From NCBI GenBank assembly GCA_021324735.1, contig JAJPIO010000006.1, forward strand, positions 15,667-79,666: a DNA stretch of 64,000 bases, written 5' to 3'. The notes under the pieces are model-generated. The model made no database searches, was not told the DNA's origin, and saw only the letters and a list, made by a program, of their open reading frames with translations. The number at the start of each line of letters is the position of its first letter. The stretch's first letter is position 1. This stretch comes from Bacteroidota bacterium (GTDB lineage: Bacteria > Bacteroidota > Ignavibacteria > Palsa-1295). Of the stretch, positions 1,530-43,172 are shown one piece after another. Both the position numbers and the translations under genes were made by a program.

Positions 1530-3359
1530 TTACTGTACAACAAGTTTTATCCACTCGTTAGAAGTAATCGTCTGAACGTGGACGACATACACTCCTTGCG
1601 ACAATCCATTGCGGCATAGCAAACTAAACGACACCGTATTTACCGCTGGCGTTAAGAATCTGGAAGATCTGCAGTTGCCCAAGAGATCAAAGATCTCGAC
1701 TTGTTGAATGATATTGGAGGAGCAAATACTTTCTTTATCTAAATCAGCTACAGAAACAGGATTCGGAAAGATCTGCACTCTCGGTTGATTCCCCTGCTCT
1801 TTTGTAACGGCGCCTGTTGCTTCCGGATAAAGTGTTATACAAATTTCCTGAGACGCTGACGTTGAATCCCCAACACGAGAGACAGAATAGCAAACGGATG
1901 CCGTGTCATTTTGAGATGGCTCGTATGGATCGATCAAAATAGAAACAGGAAGAACAGAGTGAGGAGCAATACTTAAATTTTTACCCGAACCAAAAAGTCT
2001 GGTCGAATCCCCCAGCTTCTCCATGCTAAGGAACTGACCGCTCCTATTCTTTGCATCAAATGTAACCGAAAATGTGAAGAAAACCGAGTCGCTATTAGGA
2101 TTCGTGATCGCGCCGGAGAGGCTGTCCATCTTCACCCAGGACCACGTAAGCGGGCCTGTAGTATCGAGTGTAAACAATAGTGGCTGCGGACCCGCAGAAG
2201 TATCGAAGGTCGTTGGCACTCCATTCGAATCTACAATGAGACACCATAGATTTGAGTTTGCACCCGAATCCACACTACCAACGAGAATAAAATCGCTTCC
2301 CCGCTGGATCACGTCATATGCGTTAGTATTTATACCCGCCTGATACTTCTTCTGCCAACGAACATTCCCTTTAGAATCCGTGCGGATAAGATACGCCTGG
2401 GCTGGATCGGTGGCATTTGCAGAGTAATATCCAACTACCGCAAATCCGCCATCACTACACTCGATACCATTCCATCCCCAGGATGAACCATCACCATATA
2501 GCTTATCTACTATCTTGTTACCGACAGAGTCGATCACAAGCAGTCGTACTGCGCTCGTTGCAGGTGTTTGTTCGCCGCCAAAGATTGCAAAACCGCCTTC
2601 ATGTGTGGTGATCGCCCCGTATGGAGAATCACCTGTAGAGCTACTATATGCGAGCAGCTTTTTCCACATCACACGTCCATTGGAATCCACTCGTACCGCC
2701 CAGGTATTTTCGTTGCCACCCACTTCTGTGTGTCCGGCCAACATACAGCCGCCATCCGAGGTTAAGCTGCCACAGTGAGCATGTTCGTATGCATTAGAAT
2801 CCAACTCGTAAGTATGCTCCCACAGCTTATTCATACCGGTGTCAAGTCGTTGCAGGATCATTTCTCCGGTTGGGTCGCCTTCCGACTCTGTATGTCCGCC
2901 CCAGAAGTATCCGCCCTGCGGACGCTCAGCACACCAATGTGCGTGATCGGATCGAGCATAATCAACGTCGTATTGCTTCACGATTCGACCAACCGAATCG
3001 ATCTTAACGATCCATGCGGATTCATTGCCGGAAAATTGAACGCCCGTATATCCGGCGAGCAGGGCTCCTCCCTCCTTTGTTGGCTGGATCGACCAGAGAA
3101 AACTTTTATCGAAGCGCGTGTAAAGAGAATCCCATTTTATTACGCCATGCTTTGAGACTTTAACCACCCAAAAGACCGTATTGCCAAGCGTGTCATCACC
3201 GTGTCCTCCTATGAGGAAGCCACCGTCAGCAGTTGGTATTGCGCGGTACCCCTCGCTCGATGCTCCTCGGCTATAAATGAAACTTGACTGGGCCTTTAAA
3301 TTGCCAGACGCAATGATGATAAGAATAACGATCGCAAGAAAACGGGACAGGTACTTCAT
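1530..3359 (-). CDS. T9SS C-terminal-domain secreted protein with beta-propeller-like repeats
   Basis: 609 aa with signal peptide MKYLSRFLAIVILIIIASGNLKAQS. It has repeated GG(H/Y)T / W-containing blade-like motifs. The C-terminus (RVQIFPNPVSVADLD...VYVVHVQTITSNEWIKLVVQ) is a T9SS sorting domain. Confidence 0.75.
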   Translation of the reverse strand: MKYLSRFLAIVILIIIASGNLKAQSSFIYSRGASSEGYRAIPTADGGFLIGGHGDDTLGNTVFWVVKVSKHGVIKWDSLYTRFDKSFLWSIQPTKEGGALLAGYTGVQFSGNESAWIVKIDSVGRIVKQYDVDYARSDHAHWCAERPQGGYFWGGHTESEGDPTGEMILQRLDTGMNKLWEHTYELDSNAYEHAHCGSLTSDGGCMLAGHTEVGGNENTWAVRVDSNGRVMWKKLLAYSSSTGDSPYGAITTHEGGFAIFGGEQTPATSAVRLLVIDSVGNKIVDKLYGDGSSWGWNGIECSDGGFAVVGYYSANATDPAQAYLIRTDSKGNVRWQKKYQAGINTNAYDVIQRGSDFILVGSVDSGANSNLWCLIVDSNGVPTTFDTSAGPQPLLFTLDTTGPLTWSWVKMDSLSGAITNPNSDSVFFTFSVTFDAKNRSGQFLSMEKLGDSTRLFGSGKNLSIAPHSVLPVSILIDPYEPSQNDTASVCYSVSRVGDSTSASQEICITLYPEATGAVTKEQGNQPRVQIFPNPVSVADLDKESICSSNIIQQVEIFDLLGNCRSSRFLTPAVNTVSFSLLCRNGLSQGVYVVHVQTITSNEWIKLVVQ

Positions 3360-7614: not shown

Positions 7615-8142
7615 ATGAAGCATAATTTATCGCACTACTTTCGTACGCCTCTCTTCTTCAGCACTTCACTGTTACTGGTTCTTGCAATGGCCGGCTGTTC
7701 CGCCACCACATCCCCTACCGGGACGACGGAGACGGAAAGCAGTATGGTCGCAATGGTCAATGGGTTCGATTGGTCATCGACCGTGATCCCTCCTGATATT
7801 TCGGGTGGTGCATCGGCTACAATGGATGGCACGGGCGCTCTCACGGTAACCGGTACCTCGACCTCACATGGCTCGATCGCGCTCGTACTCCTTCACCCGC
7901 ACGTGGGTCTGGACACGCTGGGCATAGGAAGTTCAGGCTCGTATATTTCAGAGGACAACCACGCATACCTCACCGTGGGCCAGAACCAAGGCATCGTGAA
8001 TCTGACCACGTTCGATCCGGTCCATCACCTGGCGAGCGGGACATTCTACTTTACGGCTCAACGCACCGATTCGGCCGCCAATCCCGCCACCACACAAGTG
8101 ACGAACGGCTCCTTTTTCAATGTGGAGTGGAAGGCGCAGTAG
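7615..8142 (+). CDS. hypothetical lipoprotein
   Basis: Signal peptide with lipobox (LLLVLAMAGCS). Thr/Ser/Gly-rich, 175 aa. Confidence 0.6.
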   Translation: MKHNLSHYFRTPLFFSTSLLLVLAMAGCSATTSPTGTTETESSMVAMVNGFDWSSTVIPPDISGGASATMDGTGALTVTGTSTSHGSIALVLLHPHVGLDTLGIGSSGSYISEDNHAYLTVGQNQGIVNLTTFDPVHHLASGTFYFTAQRTDSAANPATTQVTNGSFFNVEWKAQ

Positions 8143-8190
8143 GTTTTATAACTTCGCTATATCCCTCGCAATCGGCGCAAAATTCAACCA

Positions 8191-8290
8191 GCCGTACCCT
8201 GAAGGGTACGGCTACGAAATTTGAGAGGCCGTACCCTAAAGGGTACGGCTACGAAATTTGAGAGGCCGTACCCTAAAGGGTACGGCTACA
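8191..8290. repeat. tandem 37-bp hairpin repeat (2.7 copies) between convergent genes
   Basis: The unit is gCCGTACCCt(g/a)aaGGGTACGGctacgaaatttgagag at 8191-8227 and 8228-8264, with a partial third copy at 8265-8290. Each unit holds a perfect 8-bp stem CCGTACCC/GGGTACGG. The units are contiguous with no spacers, so this is not a CRISPR array. Confidence 0.8.
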
Positions 8291-13902: not shown

Positions 13903-15270
13903 ATGATCCCGCTTGGGGCTGAAATATTTCTCGTAATCGTCTTCCTGCTTCTGCATGCGTTCTTTTCGCTTGCAGAAACGAGCGTGCTGAACGTGCGCAA
14001 AAGCCGGCTGCGTGAAATGCTGGACGACGAAGAAACACCGGAATGGTCCGCGCGGCGTGCTCGGATCATTCTTTCCATGAAGCTTGCCCCCGAGAATTTT
14101 CTTGCCGCCGTTCAATTAGGCTCTGTCTTCTTTAGCTTCCTTGCCGCGACCTACACAACATTTATTGCATACGAGCACTTATGGCCCCTCGTTCGTACCA
14201 CTCTCGGACTTTCGAGCGAAATTAGCCTTGCCTTAGCCTTTATTGTCATGATCCTTATTGTGACGATATTGGATCTGACGTTCGGAGGCTTGGTGCCAAA
14301 GTCGATCGCCTTGCATCGCAGTGAACGCATTGCGTTCAGTATTGCCCCGCTCATCGATCTCCTGATGAAGGCCTTTAAGCCGATCACACACTTGCCCGTT
14401 ATGATGTCGAACCTCATTCTGGGTCCATTTCGTGACCAGACGAGCTTTACCGAGAGCCGTATTTCAGAAGAGGAATTTCGCGTCATGCTTGAGGAAGGCG
14501 CACGTAGCGGCACGATCGATAAGACCGAGAACGAGCTCATCGAGAACATTTTCGATTTCAACGAGCGCACTGCCCGCGAGGTCATGATCCCCCGCATCAA
14601 GATGGTCGCCATCGATGCCGATATGCCGAGAGAGCAACTGGTCGATCGGATCATTTCGGAAGGCTTTACCCGGCTGCCGGTCTTTCGCGAGACTCAGGAT
14701 AATATACTGGGTGTCATATACTCTAAGGATGTCCTCGCCCTCATCGAGCACCCGGAGCTTATTATATTGGAAGATATCATCCGCCCGGTACCCTTTGTAC
14801 CGGAAACCAAGCTTTTGGGAGAGCTTTTGCGTGAATTTCAGCGGGAGAAACTCCATATGGCCATTGTCGTAGATGAATTTGGCGGCACTGCCGGGCTTAT
14901 TACGCTCGAGGATATTCTGGAGGAGATCGTCGGCGAAATTCACGATGAATACGACGAAGAGCAGCGCAGCCTCGAGGTCGATACCGAGCATAAAGCGATA
15001 AGCCTCTCGGCCAATTATTCCATCGGCGACGCCAATCGCGAGCTTGAAAAAATATTCACTGATTTTCATATTCCGGACGATGAGGAATATGAGTCTGTTA
15101 GTGGTTATGTCAATAAGCTATTCGGGCATATTCCGGAGATCGGTGAAGAACGCGAAACACAGGGCGTCCGAGTAGTTGTTACCGATAAAGGGCCAATGAG
15201 CGTATCGGAGGTTCGCTTCGAGCACGCGGACCATCACGAGGAGCCAGTAACCGAAACCAAGACTGCATGA
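13903..15270 (+). CDS. HlyC/CorC family transporter (DUF21 + tandem CBS + CorC_HlyC)
   Basis: N-terminal 4-TM DUF21 region, a CBS pair (MIPRIKMVAID ... FGGTAGLITLEDILEEIVGEI) and a C-terminal CorC/HlyC transporter-associated domain, 455 aa. Confidence 0.85.
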   Translation: MIPLGAEIFLVIVFLLLHAFFSLAETSVLNVRKSRLREMLDDEETPEWSARRARIILSMKLAPENFLAAVQLGSVFFSFLAATYTTFIAYEHLWPLVRTTLGLSSEISLALAFIVMILIVTILDLTFGGLVPKSIALHRSERIAFSIAPLIDLLMKAFKPITHLPVMMSNLILGPFRDQTSFTESRISEEEFRVMLEEGARSGTIDKTENELIENIFDFNERTAREVMIPRIKMVAIDADMPREQLVDRIISEGFTRLPVFRETQDNILGVIYSKDVLALIEHPELIILEDIIRPVPFVPETKLLGELLREFQREKLHMAIVVDEFGGTAGLITLEDILEEIVGEIHDEYDEEQRSLEVDTEHKAISLSANYSIGDANRELEKIFTDFHIPDDEEYESVSGYVNKLFGHIPEIGEERETQGVRVVVTDKGPMSVSEVRFEHADHHEEPVTETKTA

Positions 15271-15322
15271 TCGATCGCTACTGATTTTAGAATTTCATCC
15301 AACAACCGGTCTGCGATTATTC

Positions 15323-17530
15323 ATGCGCTTATTCCTGTGCACGGCTTGTGCACTTTTACTCGTTTTAGCAACTCGCACTCTCTTTGCTCAGAATAGCGAA
15401 GCGCTCAAACACGCCCGTGCCGGATTCGACTACGAGCAGAAAAACGAATTCCGATACGCGATCTACGAATACGATACCGCCGCCAAGCTCGACCCGAAGT
15501 ATCCATACCCTATCGAGCGCATCGCGGGTATGTACCAGACGCTCAAAAATTATCCGCTCGCGATCACAAACTACGAGCGCGCCATTCGCCTCGACTCCAA
15601 CTTCGACGTTTATAACTACTATAATCTTGGTCTCTCCTTCCGTATTGTTGAAAAGCATGATAGTGCGGTCGTAGCGCTTCGAGAGTTCTTACGGCGAATG
15701 GATCCCGTAACGCATACCGATTCGATGGCTATGCGGGATGCTGATTGGTGGATCAAGTTTAATTTAGGCTGTATCGTCGAACGAGCGAAAGTGCCCAACA
15801 CCGAGGAGCCAAAGCCGCTCAACGAGATCAATAGCGCGTACGATGACTTCGGTCCCAGTATTACGGCGGATGGCAATACCCTTTACTTTACATCGACCCG
15901 GCCCGGCACGAATACCAAACAAGTGATCGAAACGGGTAATTATGGTGAAGACCTGTTCGTAACTCATCGCGATTCGCTTGGCCGATGGGGTAACCCAACA
16001 TCGTTACCAGCTCCGCTTAACTCCCTCGATGATGAAGGCTCTGCTTCTATCAGTGCCGATGGTCAAACAATGTATATCAGCCTGTGCCGGCGACCCGATG
16101 GTGCGGGCGATTGCGATATCTATGTCTCGCAACTTGTCGGCGACCAATGGACAAGGCCACAGAACATGGGGCGTCCGCTCAACTCGCCGGCCTGGGATGC
16201 TCAGCCAAGCGTTACCGCCGATGGATTGACAATGTACTTCTCGAGCCGCCGGTTTGGCTCCATGGGCGATAGCTCAGAAGATATTTACGTCTGTTATAAA
16301 AATACCGACGGCTCCTGGACGCCGCCGCACAACCTTGGTGAACCTGTGAATACGCGTTTTAACGAACGCTCTCCGTTTATCTCGGCGGATGGCAGAACGC
16401 TGTACTTCTCTTCCAACGGGCATCCTGGGATGGGTAACCACGATCTTTTTATGTCGCGCAAACTGGATGATGGTACCTGGAGCGTACCAGTCAATCTTGG
16501 CAAGCCCATCAATTCATTTGGCGACGATGCCTTCCTGACGATCCCTGCGAGCGGCGATAAGATCGTCTATGCTTCACAGCGGAAGAATCCTAAATCGCCA
16601 TTGCATTTGTATGAGGCAAAACTGCCGCTTGAATTTCGTCCGGGGCCGGTTACGCTGGTAGCAGGCACGGTATATGATCGCGAAACACATAAGCCGGTCG
16701 GTGCGCGCGTCGATGTCAACGACCTAAAGACGGATCAACTGGTTGCCGTTTACCACGCCAATAAGCTAACCGGTAAATACTATGTGACCCTTGGTACCGG
16801 TAAGATGTACGGCATCACTGCGACCGCGGAAGGATATGCACCGTATTCGGACCACTATACCGTTCCGGATACTATTCCCTATCGTGAGATCACTCATGAC
16901 CTGCCGCTGACCCCAATCCCGAATTTTGCAACAAGCGAAGGCAGAGATACGACCGGCGACTGGGCACGTAACCATCCGAGCGGAACAGACACCACGGGGC
17001 TTTGGGCTCGGACACATCCGCAAGGCAGAGATACTACGGGACTATGGGCTAAGACTCATCGGCATGGTAAAGATACCACTGGACTGTGGGCCAGGACCCA
17101 TCCGCATGGTAAGGACACAACGGGACAATGGGCTCTACGTCATCCTGTAAAAGACACTACGGGTCAGTGGGCGCTAAATCATCCTGACACCTCTGGTACC
17201 GAGATCCACAATATCTTCTTCGATTTTGATAAAGCCACGCTTCGGCCGGAATCGCACACGGAGCTTAAATATTGGATCGCACTCCTAAAGAAATATCCAA
17301 AGCTTAAGATCGAGATTGGCGGCCATACCGATTCGGTCGGTACCACGAATTATAATCACCGGCTCTCGCAACAGCGCGCGGATGCAGTACGGCAATATAT
17401 GATCGACAACGGGATCGCCGCTAGACGCTTAATTGCCATCGGCTACGGCGCAACAAAGCCCAAAGCCAGCAATGAAACGCCAGAAGGACGCCAGCAAAAC
17501 CGTCGAACGGAATTCCGGTTTATAAAATAA
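15323..17530 (+). CDS. OmpA-family outer membrane protein with TPR, PD40 (TolB-like) repeats, CarboxypepD_reg-like domain and 14-aa tandem repeats
   Basis: Signal peptide. Five PD40-like repeats (e.g. ISADGQTMYIS, VTADGLTMYFSS, ISADGRTLYFSS). The C-terminal OmpA domain is FDFDKATLRPESHTELKYW...GGHTDSVGTTNYNHRLSQQRADAV. An internal repeat DTTG(L/Q)WA(R/K)(T/N)HP occurs about 6 times at 16936-17195. Confidence 0.85.
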   Translation: MRLFLCTACALLLVLATRTLFAQNSEALKHARAGFDYEQKNEFRYAIYEYDTAAKLDPKYPYPIERIAGMYQTLKNYPLAITNYERAIRLDSNFDVYNYYNLGLSFRIVEKHDSAVVALREFLRRMDPVTHTDSMAMRDADWWIKFNLGCIVERAKVPNTEEPKPLNEINSAYDDFGPSITADGNTLYFTSTRPGTNTKQVIETGNYGEDLFVTHRDSLGRWGNPTSLPAPLNSLDDEGSASISADGQTMYISLCRRPDGAGDCDIYVSQLVGDQWTRPQNMGRPLNSPAWDAQPSVTADGLTMYFSSRRFGSMGDSSEDIYVCYKNTDGSWTPPHNLGEPVNTRFNERSPFISADGRTLYFSSNGHPGMGNHDLFMSRKLDDGTWSVPVNLGKPINSFGDDAFLTIPASGDKIVYASQRKNPKSPLHLYEAKLPLEFRPGPVTLVAGTVYDRETHKPVGARVDVNDLKTDQLVAVYHANKLTGKYYVTLGTGKMYGITATAEGYAPYSDHYTVPDTIPYREITHDLPLTPIPNFATSEGRDTTGDWARNHPSGTDTTGLWARTHPQGRDTTGLWAKTHRHGKDTTGLWARTHPHGKDTTGQWALRHPVKDTTGQWALNHPDTSGTEIHNIFFDFDKATLRPESHTELKYWIALLKKYPKLKIEIGGHTDSVGTTNYNHRLSQQRADAVRQYMIDNGIAARRLIAIGYGATKPKASNETPEGRQQNRRTEFRFIK

Positions 17531-35110: not shown

Positions 35111-36253
35111 ATGACTCCCGAAAATCGGAAACGCCTTGCAGACATTATCGAAGCCCAGAAAGATGAGATTCTGGAGGAGTGGCGCACGCGCGTACGGCCA
35201 CTGCTATCAAAGTACGATATCTCCACGCCCATTCTCAACAATGAAATGCCCGATTTCCTTGATGAACTGACGCGCCGCATTCGAGATATAGACGTGCCGT
35301 ACTCATGGGATGCCACCAAAGAAGATGATCGTGAAATTGAGACCACTGCTGTTAATCATGGCCGGCAGCGATTCGAAGCAGGTTATGATATTGTTGAGGT
35401 CATTAAGGAGTATGGGCTGCTACGCGAAGTGGTTATCGATCGTGCGGAATCCGAAGGCGTCGTGATCGGCGGCAAAGGCGGTCATGTGTTCAACTATGTC
35501 TTCAATCACGCCGCAGCAACGGCAGTGGAAACCTTCGAATCGGAAAAGCGAAACGAGACGCTCCGCCGCAGGAAAGAATATCTTGCGGTTGTGATGCATG
35601 ACCTCAAGACGCCGCTTAACGCCATCATGATTGCTGCTCACGTTATCGAGGAAGCGGTCGATAAGCCCGACGTAGTGACCGAAATGGCACAGATCATTGT
35701 CCGCAGCGGTGAGCGGCTCGACGAATTTCTTCAGGATACGATCCGAAAAGAAAAAAGCGGTCTCAATGAAGGCATTGAAGATCTTATTATTCGGCCCTTC
35801 GAATTATGGCCGCTCGTTCAATCCGTAATGGATGAGCACAGGGTGCTTGCCGAGGAATCGCACACGAGCCTGCTTAACCTGGTACCGGCAAACTTCACGA
35901 TGTCAGCCGACGCGGTCGCGCTCAAGACCGTCTTTCGAAATCTGATCTCGAATGCGATCAAATATACCGCGGGTGGCAAGATCACTACGGGTGTATCGAC
36001 ATCCCGAAAAGGTATGGTCGAGTGTTGGGTACGCGATACCGGTTCGGGTATTCCGACCGAGCGGATCGGGACGCTCTTTGAAGGTAAGACGGATCCTTCG
36101 CATAAAGGCAGCACCGGACTCGGACTCATCACCGTCAAGAAATTGGTCGAAGCACATGGCGGATGCATGACCGTCGAAAGCATGCCCGGCGAAGGAACGA
36201 CCGTCCGGATATTTTTGCCCTGCAAACCTCGGCCAGAAAATGGTGGTGTCTGA
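35111..36253 (+). CDS. cytoplasmic sensor histidine kinase (HisKA + HATPase_c), orphan
   Basis: H-box VVMHDLKTPLNAI, N-box ISNAIKYT, and G-boxes VRDTGSGIP / GTGLGLITVKKLVEAHGG. No TM segments and no response regulator nearby. The stop codon lies inside a GTCTGAAC repeat motif. Confidence 0.85.
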   Translation: MTPENRKRLADIIEAQKDEILEEWRTRVRPLLSKYDISTPILNNEMPDFLDELTRRIRDIDVPYSWDATKEDDREIETTAVNHGRQRFEAGYDIVEVIKEYGLLREVVIDRAESEGVVIGGKGGHVFNYVFNHAAATAVETFESEKRNETLRRRKEYLAVVMHDLKTPLNAIMIAAHVIEEAVDKPDVVTEMAQIIVRSGERLDEFLQDTIRKEKSGLNEGIEDLIIRPFELWPLVQSVMDEHRVLAEESHTSLLNLVPANFTMSADAVALKTVFRNLISNAIKYTAGGKITTGVSTSRKGMVECWVRDTGSGIPTERIGTLFEGKTDPSHKGSTGLGLITVKKLVEAHGGCMTVESMPGEGTTVRIFLPCKPRPENGGV

Positions 36254-36560
36254 ACGGGGATTTATGAGATGGGGAGGATGTCTGGGATAGACGAGCATCA
36301 TCCCAAACATTCCATGCAACCCATCCCAGTGGTCGGAGCCGTCTGAATGGGAAATTATGGGAATGTCTGAACTAAGATTTTGGGGATGGAGGGGATGTCT
36401 GGGATAAGAAAGCATCATCCCAAACATTCCATGCATCCCACCCATCCCAGTTCAGACACCTTCCCAGTCGTAGAGGTCTGAACGGGATTTATGCGAAAGG
36501 ATGGATGTTTGACGGGTAGGAAATCCCATCTACCCTCATTATCCTCCTTCTTCCGTTCAG
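36248..36560. repeat. cluster of MITE-like elements with TIR GTCTGAAC(T/C)GGGAT (upstream of the GxxExxY gene)
   Basis: Two ~62-bp direct repeats, GATG(G)GGAGGATGTCTGGGATA..AGCATCATCCCAAACATTCCATGCA..CCCATCCCAG at 36268-36329 and 36384-36449. GTCTGAAC(G/T)GGG occurs at 36248, 36341 and 36476, and CCCAGTTCAGAC at 36444-36457. One unit at 36341-36457 (~117 bp) has both inverted ends. Confidence 0.6.
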
Positions 36561-36573
36561 CTTTCTAAGCAAT

Positions 36574-36954
36574 ATGGATAAACACTTCGACGACAAAAAG
36601 CTGACCTATGATATTATTGGTTGCGCTATGCGTGTCCACACCGAACTTGGTTGCGGATTTCAGGAAGTGATCTATCAACGTGCATTGGAAATCGAACTGC
36701 AAGAAGCTGGAATGGAATACCGTCGCGAATTTGAAATGCCAATTCGCTACAAAGGACAATTCATTGGCGGGCGACGAGTTGACTTTCTTATTAGCGGCAT
36801 ATCTGTCGAACTCAAAGCGCTCACTCAATTGGAGGACGTCCACTTAGCTCAAGCAATGAACTACCTTGAAGCGTACGAACTCAAGACCGGCTTACTCATT
36901 AACTTCGGTGCAAAGAAGCTGCAGTTCCATCGATTGACAAACACGCATATCTGA
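36574..36954 (+). CDS. GxxExxY protein (PD-(D/E)XK nuclease-fold, PDDEXK_3 family)
   Basis: 126 aa. KLTYDIIGCAMRVHTELGCGFQEVIYQRALEIELQEAGMEYRREFEMPIRYKG...VDFLISGISVELKAL matches the GxxExxY family layout, including the ExK-like core. Flanked on both sides by the GTCTGAAC repeats. Confidence 0.8.
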   Translation: MDKHFDDKKLTYDIIGCAMRVHTELGCGFQEVIYQRALEIELQEAGMEYRREFEMPIRYKGQFIGGRRVDFLISGISVELKALTQLEDVHLAQAMNYLEAYELKTGLLINFGAKKLQFHRLTNTHI

Positions 36955-37120
36955 ACTGGAAAACATCTGAACTGGGATGGGTGGGATAATGGGGGTTATT
37001 GGGATTCTCCCAGCCATTCCCCGCTTTTCGCTGACACAATTCAGACGACATTCCACCCATTCAAGAATAGAGTTCATCCCATCCATCCCCGCATCCCATC
37101 AATCCCAGTTCAGACATCAC
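36951..37120. repeat. MITE-like element copies downstream of the GxxExxY gene
   Basis: TCTGAACTGG at 36951 and ATCTGAACTGGGATGGG at 36964 form the left TIR. AATCCCAGTTCAGACATC at 37101-37118 forms the right TIR, giving a ~155 bp unit. Confidence 0.55.
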
Positions 37121-37135
37121 AATGAAGCACCCTGC

Positions 37136-38203
37136 CTAATTTTCCACGCTGGCGCTACTTGTAAATCCCTTCTCTTTCGCCCATGATAGCATCGTAGTGT
37201 AGTACTCGGGAGGTGACACAGCATTGGTGAGATCTTCCCGTATGCCCCCGGTCTTACACTGTAGCATCCCATGATCGCAATTCGGAAGGACCTTCGTAGT
37301 TAAGCTTGCAGCCGAGTTTTTTCCGATAGTCCGCTTATATAACGCCCGCGTTTTTTTCCAATCGATATTACAATCTTTGTCGCCAAAAATGGCAAGGACG
37401 GGACAATTGATCTTGCTAAGCACTTTGTCAAAGTCCGGCACGTAGATCTGTAGCCCTGTTTTATCGTCGAAGGTAATCTCTCCCGTTTCAATTTTCTTTT
37501 GCCATGCCAGATATCCTTCTCGCGTCGGTTTGCTGCCGCCCGTTAAATAAATGTCGAACGAATCGCGCCGAAGGTCTTCCGTCGCTTTTAAGTTTTCCTC
37601 GAATGTTCCGCCGTGCCGCGCGATCGCGATCCCTTTTCGCCATTCGTTTACCAGCTTTCTTGTTTGCGATTTACTTCGTCCCTCGATCGCAAAATTCTTT
37701 TCAAGCAAATACTGAAAGTTTTCTTCACCGTCCGGGCCGCTGACGGAAATCCAAAAAGCGATCGGATACTGGGTTATCACTAATGGACAGATCCATCCCG
37801 CTCTGCTAATGCCCCATAATCCGATCTTCTCCGCACCCGTTATGTGCCTGGACTTCACTTCCGTAATGGCAGCGATAACTTCGCTTGCGCTGTTTTGGAC
37901 CGTCTGGTTGTAATCGAAAACACCTTCGCTCTTGCCACAGCCGGCTTTATCCCACAGTAGGCAGGCAATGCCCTGCTCCGCGAAGCGTGTTCTAAGCTTG
38001 TAGTATCCGTTGCTTTCAACAAAATTCGTTCGTCCGCTACCGGGCACAAGGATGACCAAAGCGCTGGCTTTTGTTTGAGTCGGCGAATCGAGTAGACCAC
38101 TATAGCGCTTACCCTCAAAAGAGAATGTAAAGGTATCCGTTTTTATTTGCGCCTGTATTCGTTCGCAAGAAAGAAGAAGGACAACCAACAGGACTTTATG
38201 CAT
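37136..38203 (-). CDS. secreted alpha/beta hydrolase
   Basis: Signal peptide MHKVLLVVLLLSCERIQAQ and GxSxG nucleophile elbow in LWGISRAGW. 355 aa with dienelactone-hydrolase/S9-like spacing. Confidence 0.75.
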   Translation of the reverse strand: MHKVLLVVLLLSCERIQAQIKTDTFTFSFEGKRYSGLLDSPTQTKASALVILVPGSGRTNFVESNGYYKLRTRFAEQGIACLLWDKAGCGKSEGVFDYNQTVQNSASEVIAAITEVKSRHITGAEKIGLWGISRAGWICPLVITQYPIAFWISVSGPDGEENFQYLLEKNFAIEGRSKSQTRKLVNEWRKGIAIARHGGTFEENLKATEDLRRDSFDIYLTGGSKPTREGYLAWQKKIETGEITFDDKTGLQIYVPDFDKVLSKINCPVLAIFGDKDCNIDWKKTRALYKRTIGKNSAASLTTKVLPNCDHGMLQCKTGGIREDLTNAVSPPEYYTTMLSWAKEKGFTSSASVEN

Positions 38204-40776: not shown

Positions 40777-41676
40777 ATGGCATCAATGGTTCTGGCATTA
40801 CAACAGGCCGCACGAGATCCATCGTATCCAGTCTCAAGGCTTCTTCGAGATGCCGCTACACTCGCATTCAAGGTGCGTATCTCGGGCATGGATGACTTTT
40901 TTGATGGGGAAAGGAATGGCTATGAGGGTAAAGAATTGCCTGATTACAGATGGCTCTCAGGTACTCCTGTCGCGCAAACAACCTTCGGGCGGTGGGTACC
41001 TCTGACCCTGGTTGGTTTCGATCAGGAGGGCTTCTACAAAAGGCCTCTCGTCCATTCCGTATCGGAAATAGAAGAAATGATTGCGCGTGCAGGAGGCACT
41101 ACGCTTGTAATGCCATACCCGAACAAAATTGTTGAAATGTTCCGACCACAAGATCCGGATCTTGGTAGTGCAGGGATTCAAGTCGGAATTCATCAATTCA
41201 AAGGCGTGCTTGAACACGTTAGGGATATGATTCTCAACTTCGCGCTTTCCCTTGAAAAGAAAGGACGCGATGTAAATGAGGAGACGATTGAAATCATAAA
41301 ACGAGATGATCTCAATATTTCAAAAAGCGAGGTCAAAGAAGCAACGACTGTAATAAATATTGAAAATCTTCAAGGGATTGCAGGCACTGTGGCTTCTTCA
41401 TCGGTACGGTTCGGCGATTTTTCTTCAATTTTAAACGTACTGAAAAATGCAAACGTCCCGCAGTCCGAGCGCAATGAACTTGAAAATATTGTGGATGAAG
41501 CTACGACGTTGCCCTCAGACGAACGGAAAGGACTTGCATCGCGCGCAACAGCCTGGCTTGATAGAAACAAATCCTTCCTTTTGACCGCCGGCACTGAGGT
41601 TACGAAGCTACTGCAACGAGCTTCACGTTCTCTAAGCCACACTGATGGACACTGTAGCCGTTCGTATGCTCGATAA
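40777..41676 (+). CDS. AbiTii-like abortive-infection domain protein
   Basis: The start ATG has GGAGG 6 nt upstream. The N-terminus MASMVLALQQAARDPSYPVSRLLRDAATLAFKV...DGERNGYEGKELPDYRWLSG follows the AbiTii N-domain pattern (LILELQ...ELNGY..PeYR.L.G). Region GC is lower than in flanking groEL. Confidence 0.55.
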   Translation: MASMVLALQQAARDPSYPVSRLLRDAATLAFKVRISGMDDFFDGERNGYEGKELPDYRWLSGTPVAQTTFGRWVPLTLVGFDQEGFYKRPLVHSVSEIEEMIARAGGTTLVMPYPNKIVEMFRPQDPDLGSAGIQVGIHQFKGVLEHVRDMILNFALSLEKKGRDVNEETIEIIKRDDLNISKSEVKEATTVINIENLQGIAGTVASSSVRFGDFSSILNVLKNANVPQSERNELENIVDEATTLPSDERKGLASRATAWLDRNKSFLLTAGTEVTKLLQRASRSLSHTDGHCSRSYAR

Positions 41677-42127: not shown

Positions 42128-42235
42128 CTTCGATCACAAGCGCAGAGCGGTGAAGTACTCGCAGCCCAGCATGAAGCGAAACGGAATGCTGGGTGGCAAA
42201 GCAAAATAGTGTCGAAGCCCTGAAAGGGCGTTGTA

Positions 42236-42345
42236 CTCCGCCCCTTCAGGGCTAATATTTTTCACGCGTTGCTAACCCAGGGCTATCGTCCCTCGATCAG
42301 GTCGAGGGCAGGCTCCGGGCTGCGAGCACTGCGTCACTTCGTGAC
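42236..42345. repeat. GC-rich palindromic repeat element (copy L) 5' of the hypothetical ORF
   Basis: CCCCTTCAGGGCTAATATTTTTCACGCGTTGCTAACCCAGGGCTA...GGGCTGCGAGCACTGCGTCACTTCGTGACT, with an internal hairpin CCCTCGA-tcagg-TCGAGGG. A partial inverted copy lies at 42150-42178. Confidence 0.6.
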
Positions 42346-42433
42346 TTGCAGCGGGATTTTTGAGGTAGGCCGGCTGTTCTGGTTTACGCATACCTTCAGA
42401 AAATAGAAACAGGCTTTGAGCCGCACAGACCCC

Positions 42434-42919
42434 ATGTCCTCTCGCATCGAAATAACACCGCAGGGACTTGCACTCTCGATCTACTCGGAGATGATCGACG
42501 TCGATTCGTATATCGAGGAGATTGAGACCGAGCTTAATAACGACGAGCGCGAAAGGTTTCTCCGTGTGCTCCGAACTTACTACCTTGCCAGCATTTCTAT
42601 AGCTATCGAAATTGTTGCGAAAACAGAATCCGGCATGAGCGCGGTGCTGACGGAGATAATTGGCCTCGAGCAAGAACGCGGTATAGGTCTGACACTTCTG
42701 GAGATCCGAACAGTATTCTCCGATATGGTCGAGCTTCTCACTGACCAGGCACAGCCACTGGAGTGGGGACTTGCCTGGGGAAGCCGTCATAATTTCTCCA
42801 CCTTGAATATCGAGCAGCTTCTGGTAATTTCCGTTTGGGCTGAGACGACCTTCCAGGCTTCACTCGAATTTCTATCTCGGTTCAAAATTCTCGCTGGCTT
42901 CCCCGCATCTCGAAATTGA
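42434..42919 (+). CDS. acidic hypothetical protein bracketed by palindromic direct repeats
   Basis: ORF of 161 aa from the first ATG (the track ORF begins at a TTG at 42416). No recognisable domain. The antisense ORF 42272-42790 has a Cys/His/Arg-rich junk-like composition. Confidence 0.45.
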   Translation: MSSRIEITPQGLALSIYSEMIDVDSYIEEIETELNNDERERFLRVLRTYYLASISIAIEIVAKTESGMSAVLTEIIGLEQERGIGLTLLEIRTVFSDMVELLTDQAQPLEWGLAWGSRHNFSTLNIEQLLVISVWAETTFQASLEFLSRFKILAGFPASRN

Positions 42920-42941: not shown

Positions 42942-43028
42942 CACATCGCCCCCAGGGCTAATCTTTTTCAAACATTGCTAACCCAGGGCTAACGCCCTGG
43001 GCTGCGAGTACTTCGTCACTCCGTGACT
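42942..43028. repeat. GC-rich palindromic repeat element (copy R) 3' of the hypothetical ORF
   Basis: CCCCCAGGGCTAATCTTTTTCAAACATTGCTAACCCAGGGCTAACGCCCTGGGCTGCGAGTACTTCGTCACTCCGTGACT is about 90% identical to copy L, minus a 31-bp internal segment. It contains the perfect hairpin CCCAGGGC-taac-GCCCTGGG. Confidence 0.6.
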
Positions 43029-43172
43029 AAACTGACACTGTTATCTCCCTAATCCAATAATCTCCCCAAATCCACGTTCAGACGACTTGCTAATTCAGGC
43101 AATCATCTCTCCGAGGATCCACCGCAGCTAATCGGTTCGCGACACAAAACACCTCCCGGTTGTTTATAGTAT

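What the first reader, a model, noticed from the sequence alone, without database searches (positions are those of the whole stretch)
36248..37120. MITE-like elements with TIR GTCTGAAC(T)GGGAT clustered around a GxxExxY (PDDEXK_3) nuclease-fold gene
There are at least five occurrences of GTCTGAAC(G/T)GGG and its reverse complement CCCAGTTCAGAC. These bound ~117-bp (36341-36457) and ~155-bp (36964-37118) units. Two ~62-bp internal direct repeats lie at 36268-36329 and 36384-36449.

The 126-aa GxxExxY gene sits exactly between the upstream and downstream copies. The stop codon of the neighbouring histidine kinase is embedded in a GTCTGAAC motif. A 180-aa minus-strand ORF (35903-36445) with repeated MHGMFGMML…YPRHP blocks is an artefact of translating the repeats.

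GxxExxY genes are known to sit in variable contexts. An explicit MITE nest around one suggests a mobilisable or hot-spot unit.
Basis: seen in the sequence. Interest (0 to 1): 0.55.

Follow-up and report, generated by a model that had tools for sequence, protein, structure and literature searches.

The report
Tiny nuclease-only mobile cassette with derivatives
The repeats are the inverted ends, and gene-less remnants, of a roughly 0.5 kb selfish DNA cassette whose only gene is a small restriction-enzyme-like nuclease (GxxExxY). This cassette type occurs in several bacterial phyla, and I found no description of it in the papers I could search.

Summary
The end motif GTCTGAAC(K)GGGAT occurs 9 times in the window against 0.69 expected, six of them at 36248-37115. 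The ORF at 36574-36954 is a clear PF13366/TIGR04256 protein.

Each end is about 42 nt: GTCTGAAC followed by 3-4 GGGAT blocks spaced 9 nt apart. The nuclease gene lies inside such a pair of ends.

- Seven cassettes with 66-100% identical proteins sit in seven unrelated gene contexts. Similarity drops from 75% to 29% exactly at the ends.
- The same end pattern was found in 87 loci from Bacteroidota, Ignavibacteriota/Kapaibacterium, Dehalococcoidia, Gemmatimonadales and Candidatus Uhrbacteria.
- Of 67 other GxxExxY genes with enough flank, 46 have TCTGAAC within 200 nt upstream (background 0.022).
- Gene-less units are the two ends joined together.
- Two orthologous empty sites exist (Mucilaginibacter leuC-ABM; Parabacteroides radA-FAD).

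No known transposase, constant target duplication or Rfam family is associated.

Best reading: a TIR-bounded selfish cassette whose PD-(D/E)XK nuclease acts on its own ends, plus MITE-like derivatives. The architecture and the evidence that it has moved are shown. The mechanism is inferred.

The parts
36247..36330 (.). Unit A. A gene-less unit with left arm 36247-36289 (GTCTGAAC plus phased GGGAT) and a decayed right arm 36297-36330. Its first bases hold the stop codon of the histidine kinase (TGA, 36251-36253).
   Evidence: nhmmer end profile gives E = 9e-8 and 1.3e-3. Direct repeat with unit B, 80% over 87 nt. Sequence read.
36340..36357 (.). Fragment of a left end (CGTCTGAATGGGAAATTATGGGAATG).
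   Evidence: Read. It is below the significance threshold of the end profile.
36364..36458 (.). Unit B. A complete gene-less unit with left arm 36364-36407, an 11-nt loop and right arm 36414-36458. ATCCC blocks are spaced 9 nt apart.
   Evidence: Inverted repeat I2. DNA fold -24.3 kcal/mol, z = -5.4. End profile E = 8e-12 and 1.6e-5. The right arm is 42/42 identical to the right end of the gene-bearing cassette in L005.
36476..36563 (.). Unit C. A left end (36476-36511) homologous to the left end that directly precedes the gene in relatives. It is followed here by about 52 extra nt ending in a decayed right-end-like CCGTTCAGC.
   Evidence: Alignment A1. Fold z = -3.3. End profile E = 7.5e-3.
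36574..36954 (+). GxxExxY protein gene (126 aa), a PD-(D/E)XK nuclease with the catalytic set E31, D70, E79, K81. It is the only gene of the cassette.
36949..36959 (.). Left-end-like ATCTGAACTGG that contains the stop codon of the nuclease gene.
   Evidence: The same arrangement (stop codon inside GTCTGAAC) is seen in L014 and L004.
36965..37116 (.). Unit D. Left arm 36965-37007, a decayed right arm 37007-37048 that aligns with the right end of the relatives' cassettes, and an intact right arm 37072-37116. The last arm is the outer right boundary of the cluster.
   Evidence: Inverted repeat I6. Alignment A1. Fold z = -4.5. End profile E = 1.2e-6 and 4.2e-7.
43040..43085 (.). Possible decayed solo right end (TAATCCAATAATCTCCCCAAATCCACGTTCAGAC). 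This is weak.
   Evidence: One-mismatch hit to the 14-mer and sequence. Not significant with the end profile.
35903..36445 (-). 180-aa ORF made by reading the repeats and the antisense of the kinase gene. Most likely not a gene.
   Evidence: No Pfam match. It overlaps the kinase gene 35111-36253. Similar 'MHGMFG...HP' pseudo-ORFs arise from repeat arrays in other genomes.

Best explanation
The cluster at 36247-37116 is one gene-bearing copy and three to four gene-less copies of a small selfish cassette. In the canonical form found in relatives, the cassette is 0.45-0.7 kb long. It consists of a left end, a single gene for a 125-140 aa PD-(D/E)XK nuclease of the GxxExxY family, and a right end that is the inverted copy of the left.

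Each end is the 8-mer GTCTGAAC at the very tip, followed by 3-4 short blocks (GGGAT here) spaced 9 nt apart.

**Shown**
- The gene and its ends travel as one unit.
- The unit sits in unrelated places in different genomes.
- It is present or absent at orthologous sites.
- It is wedged between genes, often so tightly that the upstream gene stops in the end motif and the next gene starts a few bases after it.
- It leaves behind gene-less units made of the two ends joined, tandem arrays of such units, and solo ends.

**Inferred**
- The nuclease, probably as a dimer or higher oligomer, binds the phased blocks at both ends and cuts at or next to the conserved tip.
- The element is copied when the break is repaired from another copy, or by host repair synthesis. 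This would be a homing-like route rather than a transposase-catalysed one.
- Unequal recombination between ends would produce the arrays and nested arrangements, such as the one in this window.
For: **Boundaries**
- Similarity among window, L004 and L005 starts at (G/A)TCTGAAC and stops at CCCAGTTCAGAC.
- In seven cassettes (proteins 66-100% identical; 494-640 bp) mean identity is 0.75 for the 30 nt inside the ends and 0.29 for the 30 nt outside them.

**Different contexts**
- The neighbours differ in every case: kinase/hydrolase here, YceG/BNR, methyltransferase, HicA/Y1_Tnp, HicA/HNH, RF/DUF4760, and the Ignavibacteriae locus L068.

**Spread of the end motif**
- ATCCCAAANATNCN{12,16}ATCCCAGTTC matches 87 loci (121 matches) in five phyla-level groups.
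- A GxxExxY gene is present in 9 of these loci, and in all 9 it lies within 160 nt of a motif. Chance expectation is about 0.095 per locus.

**Reverse test on 67 other GxxExxY genes (61-71% identity)**
- TCTGAAC lies within 200 nt upstream in 46.
- GTTCAGA lies within 200 nt downstream in 33.
- Both are present in 26.
- Background is 0.022 per 200 nt, giving P = 1e-59.

**The two ends of one cassette carry the same block variant**
- Left-versus-right match is 0.88-0.97 at positions 10-13 although those positions vary among cassettes.
- Spacers match only 0.24-0.45.
- Protein clusters track the block type: GGGAT/GGAAT, TGATT, GAATT, AGATT.

**Cargo and derivatives**
- Among 172 end pairs, the only convincing cargo gene within a single cassette is GxxExxY. 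In three loci a host hsdS gene lies between the ends of neighbouring units.
- Gene-less units equal the first 41 nt plus the last 42-58 nt of the gene-bearing unit.

**Empty sites**
- Mucilaginibacter polytrichastri has leuC-85 nt-ABM. L150 and L171 have leuC-[cassette]-ABM. L200 has leuC-[cassette]-leuD.
- Parabacteroides distasonis has radA-13 nt-FAD gene. Bacteroides finegoldii has radA-[cassette with 30-nt TIR]-FAD gene.

**Nuclease**
- The catalytic residues are invariant.
- The model is confident and has a PD-(D/E)XK fold.
- Tandem-fused two-domain family members exist, which hints at a dimer.

**Absence of other machinery**
- No transposase or integrase lies within 10 kb of the window's cassette.
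Against: - No biochemical or direct in-vivo evidence of movement exists.
- No constant target-site duplication was found. Only 4 of 27 cassettes have flanking direct repeats, of 19 to about 70 nt.
- PD-(D/E)XK enzymes hydrolyse DNA and are not known to join strands, so insertion must rely on host functions that I could not identify.
- In this window the arrangement is not canonical. A decayed right end lies between the left end and the ATG, and an extra left arm follows the stop codon.
- About a fifth of genes have the ends facing the gene instead: right-end-type motif upstream in 13 of 67 and left-end-type motif downstream in 6 of 67. L054 is an example.
- Dehalococcoidia copies are solo and some sit directly upstream of promoter-like boxes, so some copies may have a host role.
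- Two distant family members are flanked by direct rather than inverted repeats.
- All significant copies in the 64-kb window are in one cluster.
Confidence: 0.7

Rival explanations
1. The system is domesticated and REP/RAYT-like. The hairpin units would be host-tolerated or host-useful repeats (REPIN-like), and GxxExxY would be their maintenance nuclease, inherited mostly vertically rather than being a selfish mobile gene.
For: - The gene is flanked by inverted repeats, as RAYTs are.
- Gene-less doublets and BIME-like tandem arrays of about 10 units occur in a Saprospiraceae MAG.
- A terminal tag is conserved across phyla.
- Solo copies lie next to promoters in Dehalococcoidia.
Against: - Near-identical cassettes sit in seven different contexts.
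- Empty orthologous sites exist.
- The family comprises 13,427 clusters at 50% identity, and more than one gene copy occurs in a single MAG contig (L093 and L095).
- The enzyme is PD-(D/E)XK, not an HUH Y1 transposase.
- The ends are 42-nt phased-block arrays, not short GC-rich palindromes with GTAG/CGTC tags.
Confidence: 0.12
2. The ends are recombination or transposition sites used by an enzyme encoded elsewhere (a transposase or an integron-like integrase). GxxExxY would be only a frequent passenger or an addiction gene.
For: - The ends finish in ...AAC / GTT..., reminiscent of attC core sites.
- Many gene-less copies exist without a nuclease gene nearby: 78 of 87 loci.
- One locus has a Y1_Tnp gene 470 nt away.
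Against: - No gene other than GxxExxY was found as cargo of a single cassette.
- The block variant of the ends tracks the protein clade.
- The start codon and the C-terminal codons overlap the ends.
- No integrase or transposase lies within 10 kb here.
- The Y1_Tnp locus carries its own, different GCTCCGTAGGAGC hairpins.
- The gene lies inside the palindrome, not beside it.
Confidence: 0.12
3. The element is an RNA-level or defence module. The paired ends would form a long stem in the operon transcript (a processing or regulatory site, as in rRNA intervening sequences). Alternatively, the nuclease would be a toxin or defence effector controlled by the repeats.
For: - Cassettes lie inside operons on the same strand as their neighbours. 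In 23 of 30 cases the upstream ORF ends at the left end.
- Several lie in type I R-M operons.
- An AbiTii gene lies about 4 kb away in the window.
Against: - There is no PADLOC match and no Rfam family.
- Spacers between blocks are not complementary (0.24-0.45 match), so a continuous stem is not conserved in gene-bearing copies.
- Solo ends and arrays occur away from any gene.
- Presence/absence at DNA level is shown.
- This reading could be true in addition to, rather than instead of, mobility.
Confidence: 0.05
4. The repeats are chance matches or a purely local tandem duplication.
For: All significant copies in this window are in one 870-bp cluster. Units A and B are 80% identical direct repeats 117 nt apart.
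Against: - 0 of 100 shuffles reach the observed count.
- The same ends occur in 87 loci of other genomes.
- The same ends flank homologous genes elsewhere.
Confidence: 0.01

Closest known systems
Insertion sequences and their MITE derivatives
   Same: Terminal inverted repeats with several sub-terminal protein-site-like blocks. One internal gene. Gene-less derivatives made of the two ends. Dispersed and nested copies. Presence/absence at orthologous sites.
   Different: The only gene is a 126-aa PD-(D/E)XK hydrolase, not a DDE, HUH, serine or tyrosine transposase. There is no constant target-site duplication. The size (0.45-0.7 kb) is below that of known autonomous IS, to my knowledge.
REP/REPIN elements with RAYT (REP-associated tyrosine transposase)
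   Same: A nuclease-type gene flanked by inverted copies of a repeat that is also scattered gene-less, as doublets and arrays. A short terminal tag is conserved across distant taxa.
   Different: The enzyme class differs (PD-(D/E)XK against HUH Y1). The repeats are 42-nt arrays of phased 5-nt blocks rather than 20-40-nt GC-rich palindromes. The genes are multi-copy and horizontally spread rather than single-copy and vertical.
Free-standing homing endonuclease genes, including the PD-(D/E)XK homing enzyme I-Ssp6803I
   Same: A small selfish nuclease gene inserted between conserved genes without disrupting them. Spread is presumably by break repair.
   Different: Homing endonuclease genes have no terminal inverted repeats and no gene-less derivatives. 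Their target is the empty allele, which could not be identified here.
Integron gene cassettes with attC sites
   Same: Compact promoter-less-looking units packed in the same orientation as their neighbours. Imperfect palindromes end in AAC...GTT.
   Different: The gene lies inside the palindrome. There is only one kind of cargo. No integrase is nearby. The core sites do not fit RYYYAAC/GTTRRRY.
Tn7 TnsA
   Same: A restriction-endonuclease-fold protein that cuts transposon ends carrying several repeated binding sites.
   Different: TnsA works together with the DDE transposase TnsB and further proteins. Here no partner is encoded.

Membership tests
GxxExxY protein (Pfam PF13366 PDDEXK_3 / NCBIfam TIGR04256) | Score above the curated cut-off of both family models | tested here: met
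   PF13366: 125 bits against a cut-off of 22. TIGR04256: 128.1 bits against a cut-off of 35.
GxxExxY protein (Pfam PF13366 PDDEXK_3 / NCBIfam TIGR04256) | GxxExxY motif and the PD-(D/E)XK catalytic residues (E, D, ExK) within the alpha-beta-beta-beta-alpha-beta core | tested here: met
IS/MITE-type TIR transposable element | Terminal inverted repeats that bound the unit | tested here: met
IS/MITE-type TIR transposable element | Several dispersed copies within one genome | tested here: inconclusive
Relatives: 3 loci over about 300 kb in chromosome OY969726.1, 12 contigs of MAG CBDCTQ01, and 8-14 contigs in each of three Dehalococcoidia MAGs.
IS/MITE-type TIR transposable element | Target-site duplication of constant length | tested here: not met
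   23 of 27 cassettes have no flanking direct repeat above shuffled controls. Four have repeats of 19, 22, about 60 and about 70 nt.
IS/MITE-type TIR transposable element | A transposase of a known catalytic class encoded inside the unit or supplied in trans | tested here: not met
   The only ORF is the PD-(D/E)XK protein. No transposase lies within 10 kb.
IS/MITE-type TIR transposable element | Presence/absence at orthologous sites | tested here: met
   Mucilaginibacter leuC-ABM site. Bacteroidales radA-FAD site. Not obtained for the window's own locus.
REP/RAYT (REPIN) system | HUH Y1 transposase flanked by its REPs | tested here: not met
   The flanked gene is PF13366. Y1_Tnp was seen once in roughly 100 loci, with different hairpins.
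REP/RAYT (REPIN) system | Short GC-rich palindromes carrying a GTAG or CGTC tag | tested here: not met
   The ends are 42-nt arrays of phased blocks with a GTCTGAAC tip.
Integron cassette / attC | attC palindrome 3' of the ORF with RYYYAAC...GTTRRRY cores, diverse cargo, and a nearby integrase | tested here: not met
   The gene lies inside the palindrome in most cases. Cargo within a single cassette is GxxExxY only. No integrase is present. TCTGAAC/GTTCAGA fit the cores only at AAC/GTT.
Free-standing homing endonuclease gene | The nuclease cleaves the allele that lacks the gene | not testable with these tools
   This needs enzyme assays on empty-site DNA such as the L198 leuC-ABM spacer.
Known structured RNA families (Rfam 15) | Match at or above the gathering score over the repeats | tested here: not met
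   Only sub-threshold miRNA-hairpin noise in the window. Nothing over the ends in 20 related loci.

The most novel reading that the evidence does not exclude
GxxExxY cassettes are a new class of autonomous prokaryotic mobile element. Its only protein, a roughly 125-aa restriction-endonuclease-fold nuclease, recognises phased 9-nt-spaced blocks in its own inverted ends, cuts at the conserved GTCTGAAC tip, and spreads by host break repair. The element slips between genes while supplying a stop codon to the upstream gene and leaving the next start codon intact. This would explain why this family of 13,427 clusters has no assigned function and sits in variable contexts.
Probability: 0.4. Interest if true: 0.9.

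Novelty: new variant of a known kind. Interest (0 to 1): 0.78.

Why it matters
- GxxExxY (PF13366/TIGR04256) is a large family: 13,427 clusters at 50% identity in this search. In the only survey I found that lists it, its function is given as unknown (PMC3424549).
- If its members are the engines of tiny TIR-bounded cassettes, thousands of 'hypothetical nuclease' annotations get an explanation. A widespread source of intergenic repeats, hairpin arrays and pseudo-ORFs in Bacteroidota, Ignavibacteriota and Chloroflexota would be identified.
- A mobile element with neither a transposase nor a recombinase of a known class would become available for study.
- The cassettes are small, end-defined and apparently non-disruptive when inserted in operons. 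The enzyme-end pairs come in natural specificity variants (GGGAT, TGATT, GAATT, CAGAGGA and others). Both features make the hypothesis directly testable and potentially useful.

Tried and rejected
**Searches that gave no usable answer**
- Empty site for the window's own locus. Orthologues of the histidine kinase are 60-65% identical (named Candidatus Kapabacteria by their sources) and do not keep the downstream neighbour. The kinase C-terminal tail is too variable to tell whether the insertion truncated it.
- Rfam. Only sub-threshold miRNA-hairpin hits over unit B. Nothing over the ends in 20 loci.
- PDB by sequence: no hit. PADLOC: no hit. PHROGs: one weak family of unknown function.
- Literature. 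Nine searches found no paper linking GxxExxY/PF13366 to inverted repeats, MITEs or mobility. PMC3424549 lists the family with function 'Unknown'. This library is incomplete, so novelty is not proven.
- Promoter and terminator scan of 36100-37300: no terminator-like site, and promoter-like hits within noise.
- Viral contigs: only 2 relatives, so phages are not an evident vector.

**Hypotheses tested and not supported**
- Short constant target-site duplication: not found.
- Alternative cargo between the ends: none found. Three cases where hsdS lies between a left and a right end are better read as ends of two neighbouring units.
- The hit at 43070-43083 as a second locus in the window: it looks like a decayed end but is not significant with the profile.
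- Continuous hairpin as the selected feature: rejected for gene-bearing copies, because spacers do not match between the ends.
Full report
**1. What is in the window**

The region lies between two convergent genes. One is a histidine kinase (35111-36253, +; HisKA/HATPase_c). The other is an alpha/beta hydrolase (37136-38203, -).

- The 14-mer GTCTGAACKGGGAT with up to 2 mismatches occurs 9 times in the window against 0.69 expected. Six of these are at 36248-37115.
- The repeat finder shows an 87-nt direct repeat (36240-36326 and 36357-36443, 80% identical) and a set of 22-44-nt inverted repeats.
- I read four units:
  - A, 36247-36330, with a decayed right arm.
  - B, 36364-36458, a complete 42 + 11 + 42 nt palindrome.
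  - C, 36476-36563.
  - D, 36965-37116.
- There are also a left-end fragment at 36340-36357 and a left-end-like ATCTGAACTGG that contains the stop codon of the central ORF.
- As single-stranded DNA, B, D and C fold far better than shuffles (z = -5.4, -4.5, -3.3). A does not.
- GGGAT/ATCCC occur 19 times in the 500 non-coding bases against 0.9 expected, spaced 9 nt apart.
- The central ORF (36574-36954, 126 aa) is an unambiguous PF13366/TIGR04256 GxxExxY protein.
- The kinase's TGA stop codon is inside the first GTCTGAAC.
- The 180-aa minus-strand ORF has no family match and overlaps the kinase gene.

The only corrections are to unit boundaries and to the length of the 'TIR'.

**2. Source**

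- The same sequence is on ENA contig ERZ27279670:k141_203295 (141 kb), on a JGI contig and on a Logan contig. All three are identical across the region.
- The nearest named homologues of the kinase are from Candidatus Kapabacteria/Kapaibacterium at 60-65% identity.

**3. The gene is inside the element**

- Proteins 89-90% identical to the window's protein occur on a 3.58-Mb chromosome (L004 = OY969726.1) and in another MAG (L005), in different gene neighbourhoods.
- In both, GTCTGAACTGGGATTTATGAGATAGGAGGAATGTTTGGGAT ends 8 nt before the ATG. ATCCCAAACATTCC..ATCCCA...ATCCCAGTTCAGAC lies 20-60 nt after the stop.
- In a three-way alignment, similarity begins at (G/A)TCTGAAC and ends at CCCAGTTCAGAC.
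- Adding four more relatives (66-87% identical; L192, L193, L196, L068) gives seven cassettes of 494-640 bp. Mean identity is 0.75 for the 30 nt inside the ends and 0.29 for the 30 nt outside. All seven have different neighbours.
- Gene-less units next to them equal the first 41 nt plus the last 42-58 nt of the gene-bearing unit. The right arm of window unit B is 42/42 identical to the right end of the L005 cassette.

**4. Distribution of the end**

- The pattern ATCCCAAANATNCN{12,16}ATCCCAGTTC matches either end on one strand or the other. In one representative genome per species it found 87 loci with 121 matches.
- The taxa are:
  - Chitinophagaceae, Saprospiraceae, Cytophagales, Flavisolibacter and Niastella (Bacteroidota);
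  - Ignavibacteriota and Kapaibacterium;
  - four Dehalococcoidia MAGs;
  - one Gemmatimonadales MAG;
  - one Candidatus Uhrbacteria MAG.
- The consensus is 3-4 ATCCC blocks with a 9-10-nt period, followed by AGTTCAGAC(A).
- Nine of the loci contain a GxxExxY gene (50-90% identical to the window's). In all nine it lies within 160 nt of a motif.
- A Saprospiraceae MAG has tandem arrays of about ten left/right units (for example L094 3254-4614).
- Dehalococcoidia copies are solo, intergenic, and in several cases directly upstream of TTGACA...TAATAT-like boxes, once about 1 kb upstream of a 16S gene.

**5. The reverse test**

- A metagenome scan with an alignment of 47 homologues returned 80 other GxxExxY genes (61-71% identical).
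- Of the 67 with at least 150 nt on both sides:
  - 46 have TCTGAAC within 200 nt upstream;
  - 33 have GTTCAGA within 200 nt downstream;
  - 26 have both;
  - 55 have at least one.
- Background is 0.022 per 200 nt per orientation, giving P = 1e-59.
- The tip is conserved, but the phased block differs among cassettes: TGATT is commonest, followed by GGAAT, GAATT, CGGAT, AGATT and CAGAT. The other end mirrors it.
- In 33 cassettes the left end matches the reverse complement of the right end at these rates:

| Positions | Left/right match |
|---|---|
| 1-7 | 0.97-1.0 |
| 10-13 | 0.88-0.97 |
| 19-23 | 0.70-0.79 |
| Blocks near 28-32 and 37-41 | about 0.5-0.67 |
| Spacers | 0.24-0.45 |

- The two ends therefore share phased sites, not a continuous stem. 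This points to protein-binding sites.
- Clustering the proteins groups the cassettes by block type. That fits co-evolution, although shared descent of gene and ends would give the same picture.

**6. More distant family members (30-60% identity, plasmid collection)**

The theme holds with other sequences:

| Organism | Neighbours | Flanking repeats |
|---|---|---|
| B. finegoldii | radA and an FAD-protein gene | 30-nt TIR with phased CAGAGGA |
| Bernardetia | ade and a mannose-1-phosphate guanylyltransferase gene | 28-nt TIR with phased ACAGAGA |
| Treponema | hypothetical protein and Fic gene | 16-nt TIR |
| Sphingomonas | fabD and fabG | phased CGCGAAG blocks upstream |
| Gemmatirosa | record not annotated | hairpin of phased CGCGGAT downstream |
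| Prevotella, a Fusobacteria isolate | hypothetical proteins (Prevotella); ATP-binding protein and metal-dependent hydrolase (Fusobacteria) | direct repeats instead of inverted ones |

**7. Insertion behaviour**

- In 23 of 30 cases a long same-strand ORF stops between 8 nt before and 45 nt after the start of the left end. In nine, as for the window's kinase, it uses the TGA inside TCTGAAC.
- In 13 of 31 cases an ATG within 12 nt of the right end opens a long ORF, often as GTTCAGACAATG.
- The cassette's own start codon can lie in the fourth block, and its last codons lie in the right end.
- Two empty sites were found.
  - In Mucilaginibacter, L198 has leuC ...GAATTAGTAGGATAA, 85 nt, then the ABM gene. 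L150 has leuC ...GAATTAG|TCTGAAC...GTTCAGA|caaaatataataATG of the ABM gene. L171 is like L150. L200 has a cassette with the same GAATT-type right end between leuC and leuD.
  - In Bacteroidales, P. distasonis has radA TAA-13 nt-ATG where B. finegoldii carries a cassette.
- There is no constant target duplication. Four of 27 cassettes have long flanking direct repeats. One is a duplicate of about 70 nt covering the upstream gene's 3' end (L141). One is a tandem arrangement of about 60 nt (L109).

**8. The protein**

- E31, D70, E79 and K81 are invariant.
- The AlphaFold model (pLDDT 92) has the alpha-alpha-beta-beta-beta-alpha-beta-beta order.
- The family has 13,427 clusters at E of 1e-3 or better. 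Some members are tandem two-domain fusions, which suggests a dimer.
- There is no PDB sequence relative, no PADLOC match and only a weak PHROG match.

**9. Interpretation**

Shown:
- A TIR-bounded unit of gene plus ends has moved between contexts and lineages.
- It leaves gene-less end-to-end derivatives, arrays and solo ends.
- It inserts between genes with little disruption.

Inferred:
- The nuclease binds the phased blocks and cuts at the tip.
- Copying happens through host repair.
- Arrays and the nested layout in this window arise by recombination between ends.

The window's copy is rearranged. It has a decayed right-end-like stretch between the left end and the ATG, an extra left arm after the stop codon, and two right arms.

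Rivals are scored in the report sections: a REP/RAYT-like domesticated system, a trans-acting recombinase with GxxExxY as passenger, an RNA or defence module, and chance. The main weaknesses are the absence of any experiment, the absence of a constant target duplication, and the lack of a known way for a hydrolase alone to insert DNA.

**10. Novelty**

- I found no paper in the searchable library that links this family to inverted repeats or mobility.
- The 2012 survey of the superfamily lists PF13366 as 'Unknown'.
- The architecture resembles an IS with its MITEs, but the enzyme class and the missing target duplication set it apart. I therefore rate it a new variant of a known kind, with a 0.4 chance that it is a new class of autonomous element.

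Noticed in passing
window 42130-42345 and 42947-43027: A second, unrelated repeat family (…GTACTCGCAGCCCAGCATGAAGCG…CAGGGCTAATATTTTT…ACCCAGGGCT…GGGCTGCGAG.ACT.CGTCACT.CGTGAC). Two partial copies flank an ORF without family match (42416-42919). Copies also occur in L026, L005 and L068, in two cases right next to GxxExxY-type ends.
   Followed up: partly
window 8180-8290: Three tandem 37-nt units, each with a perfect hairpin (CCGTACCC-TGAA-GGGTACGG). They start at the 3' end of an ORF (7797-8261).
   Followed up: no
window 16938-17147: Five 42-nt tandem repeats (64-70% identical) inside a 759-codon ORF (15251-17530). This is probably a repeated 14-residue protein motif.
   Followed up: no
window about 40777-41676 (L001 14204-15103): An AbiTii-domain gene about 4 kb from the cassette, followed by two ORFs without family match.
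   Followed up: no
L004 9850-9953; L005 10813-10880; L193 2420-2453 and 3003-3040; L192 about 3290-3340: A conserved coding-like tail '(A/G)TFK.A.VEDM..EQ' lies just outside the ends. It is upstream in L004, downstream in L005 and L192, and on both sides in L193. In L005 it may be the split 3' end of a DNA-methyltransferase-associated gene. It is unexplained. It could be co-transferred flank or a preferred target.
   Followed up: partly
L141 2480-2605 and 3066-3140; L109 2740-2810 and 3511-3575; L068 6670-6695 and 7199-7222: Long direct repeats flank some cassettes. Examples are a duplicate of about 70 nt covering the upstream gene's last 22 codons in L141 and a 19-nt repeat in L068. The length varies, unlike transposase-made target duplications.
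   Followed up: partly
L192 3363-3830 and L004 9640-9870: A Y1_Tnp (IS200/RAYT-like) gene is preceded by GCTCCGTAGGAGC-type hairpins. The same hairpins are scattered upstream of the L004 cassette. This is probably a separate GTAG-tagged REP-like family sharing the same intergenic 'junkyards'.
   Followed up: no
L013, L022, L027, L048, L064, L088 (Dehalococcoidia MAGs): Solo GGGAT-type ends sit immediately upstream of TTGACA...TAATAT-like promoter boxes of repeated leader regions. In L022 this is about 1 kb upstream of a 16S rRNA gene. The ends may have been co-opted as upstream promoter elements.
   Followed up: no
L199 3423-4136; L186 1234-1911: The same intergenic slots that hold GxxExxY cassettes (leuC-leuD, radA-FAD gene) hold unrelated small ORFs of unknown function in other genomes (237 aa and 225 aa). 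These slots may be general hot spots for inserted genes.
   Followed up: no
P0268, P0270, P0271, P0275 and others: Family members of 250-295 aa with two GxxExxY domains in tandem, and one 1605-aa protein with 29 matched stretches (P0285).
   Followed up: no
L057, L062, L094, L142 and window 35903-36445: Repeat arrays generate recurrent pseudo-ORFs (for example MHGIFGIFG...HPIHPS..NPSSDKG). Gene callers are likely to annotate these as hypothetical proteins.
   Followed up: no
L068 5774-5820: An Acido-Lenti-1 RNA match just above the gathering score (37.9 against 37 bits), about 900 nt upstream of the cassette in an Ignavibacteriae MAG.
   Followed up: no
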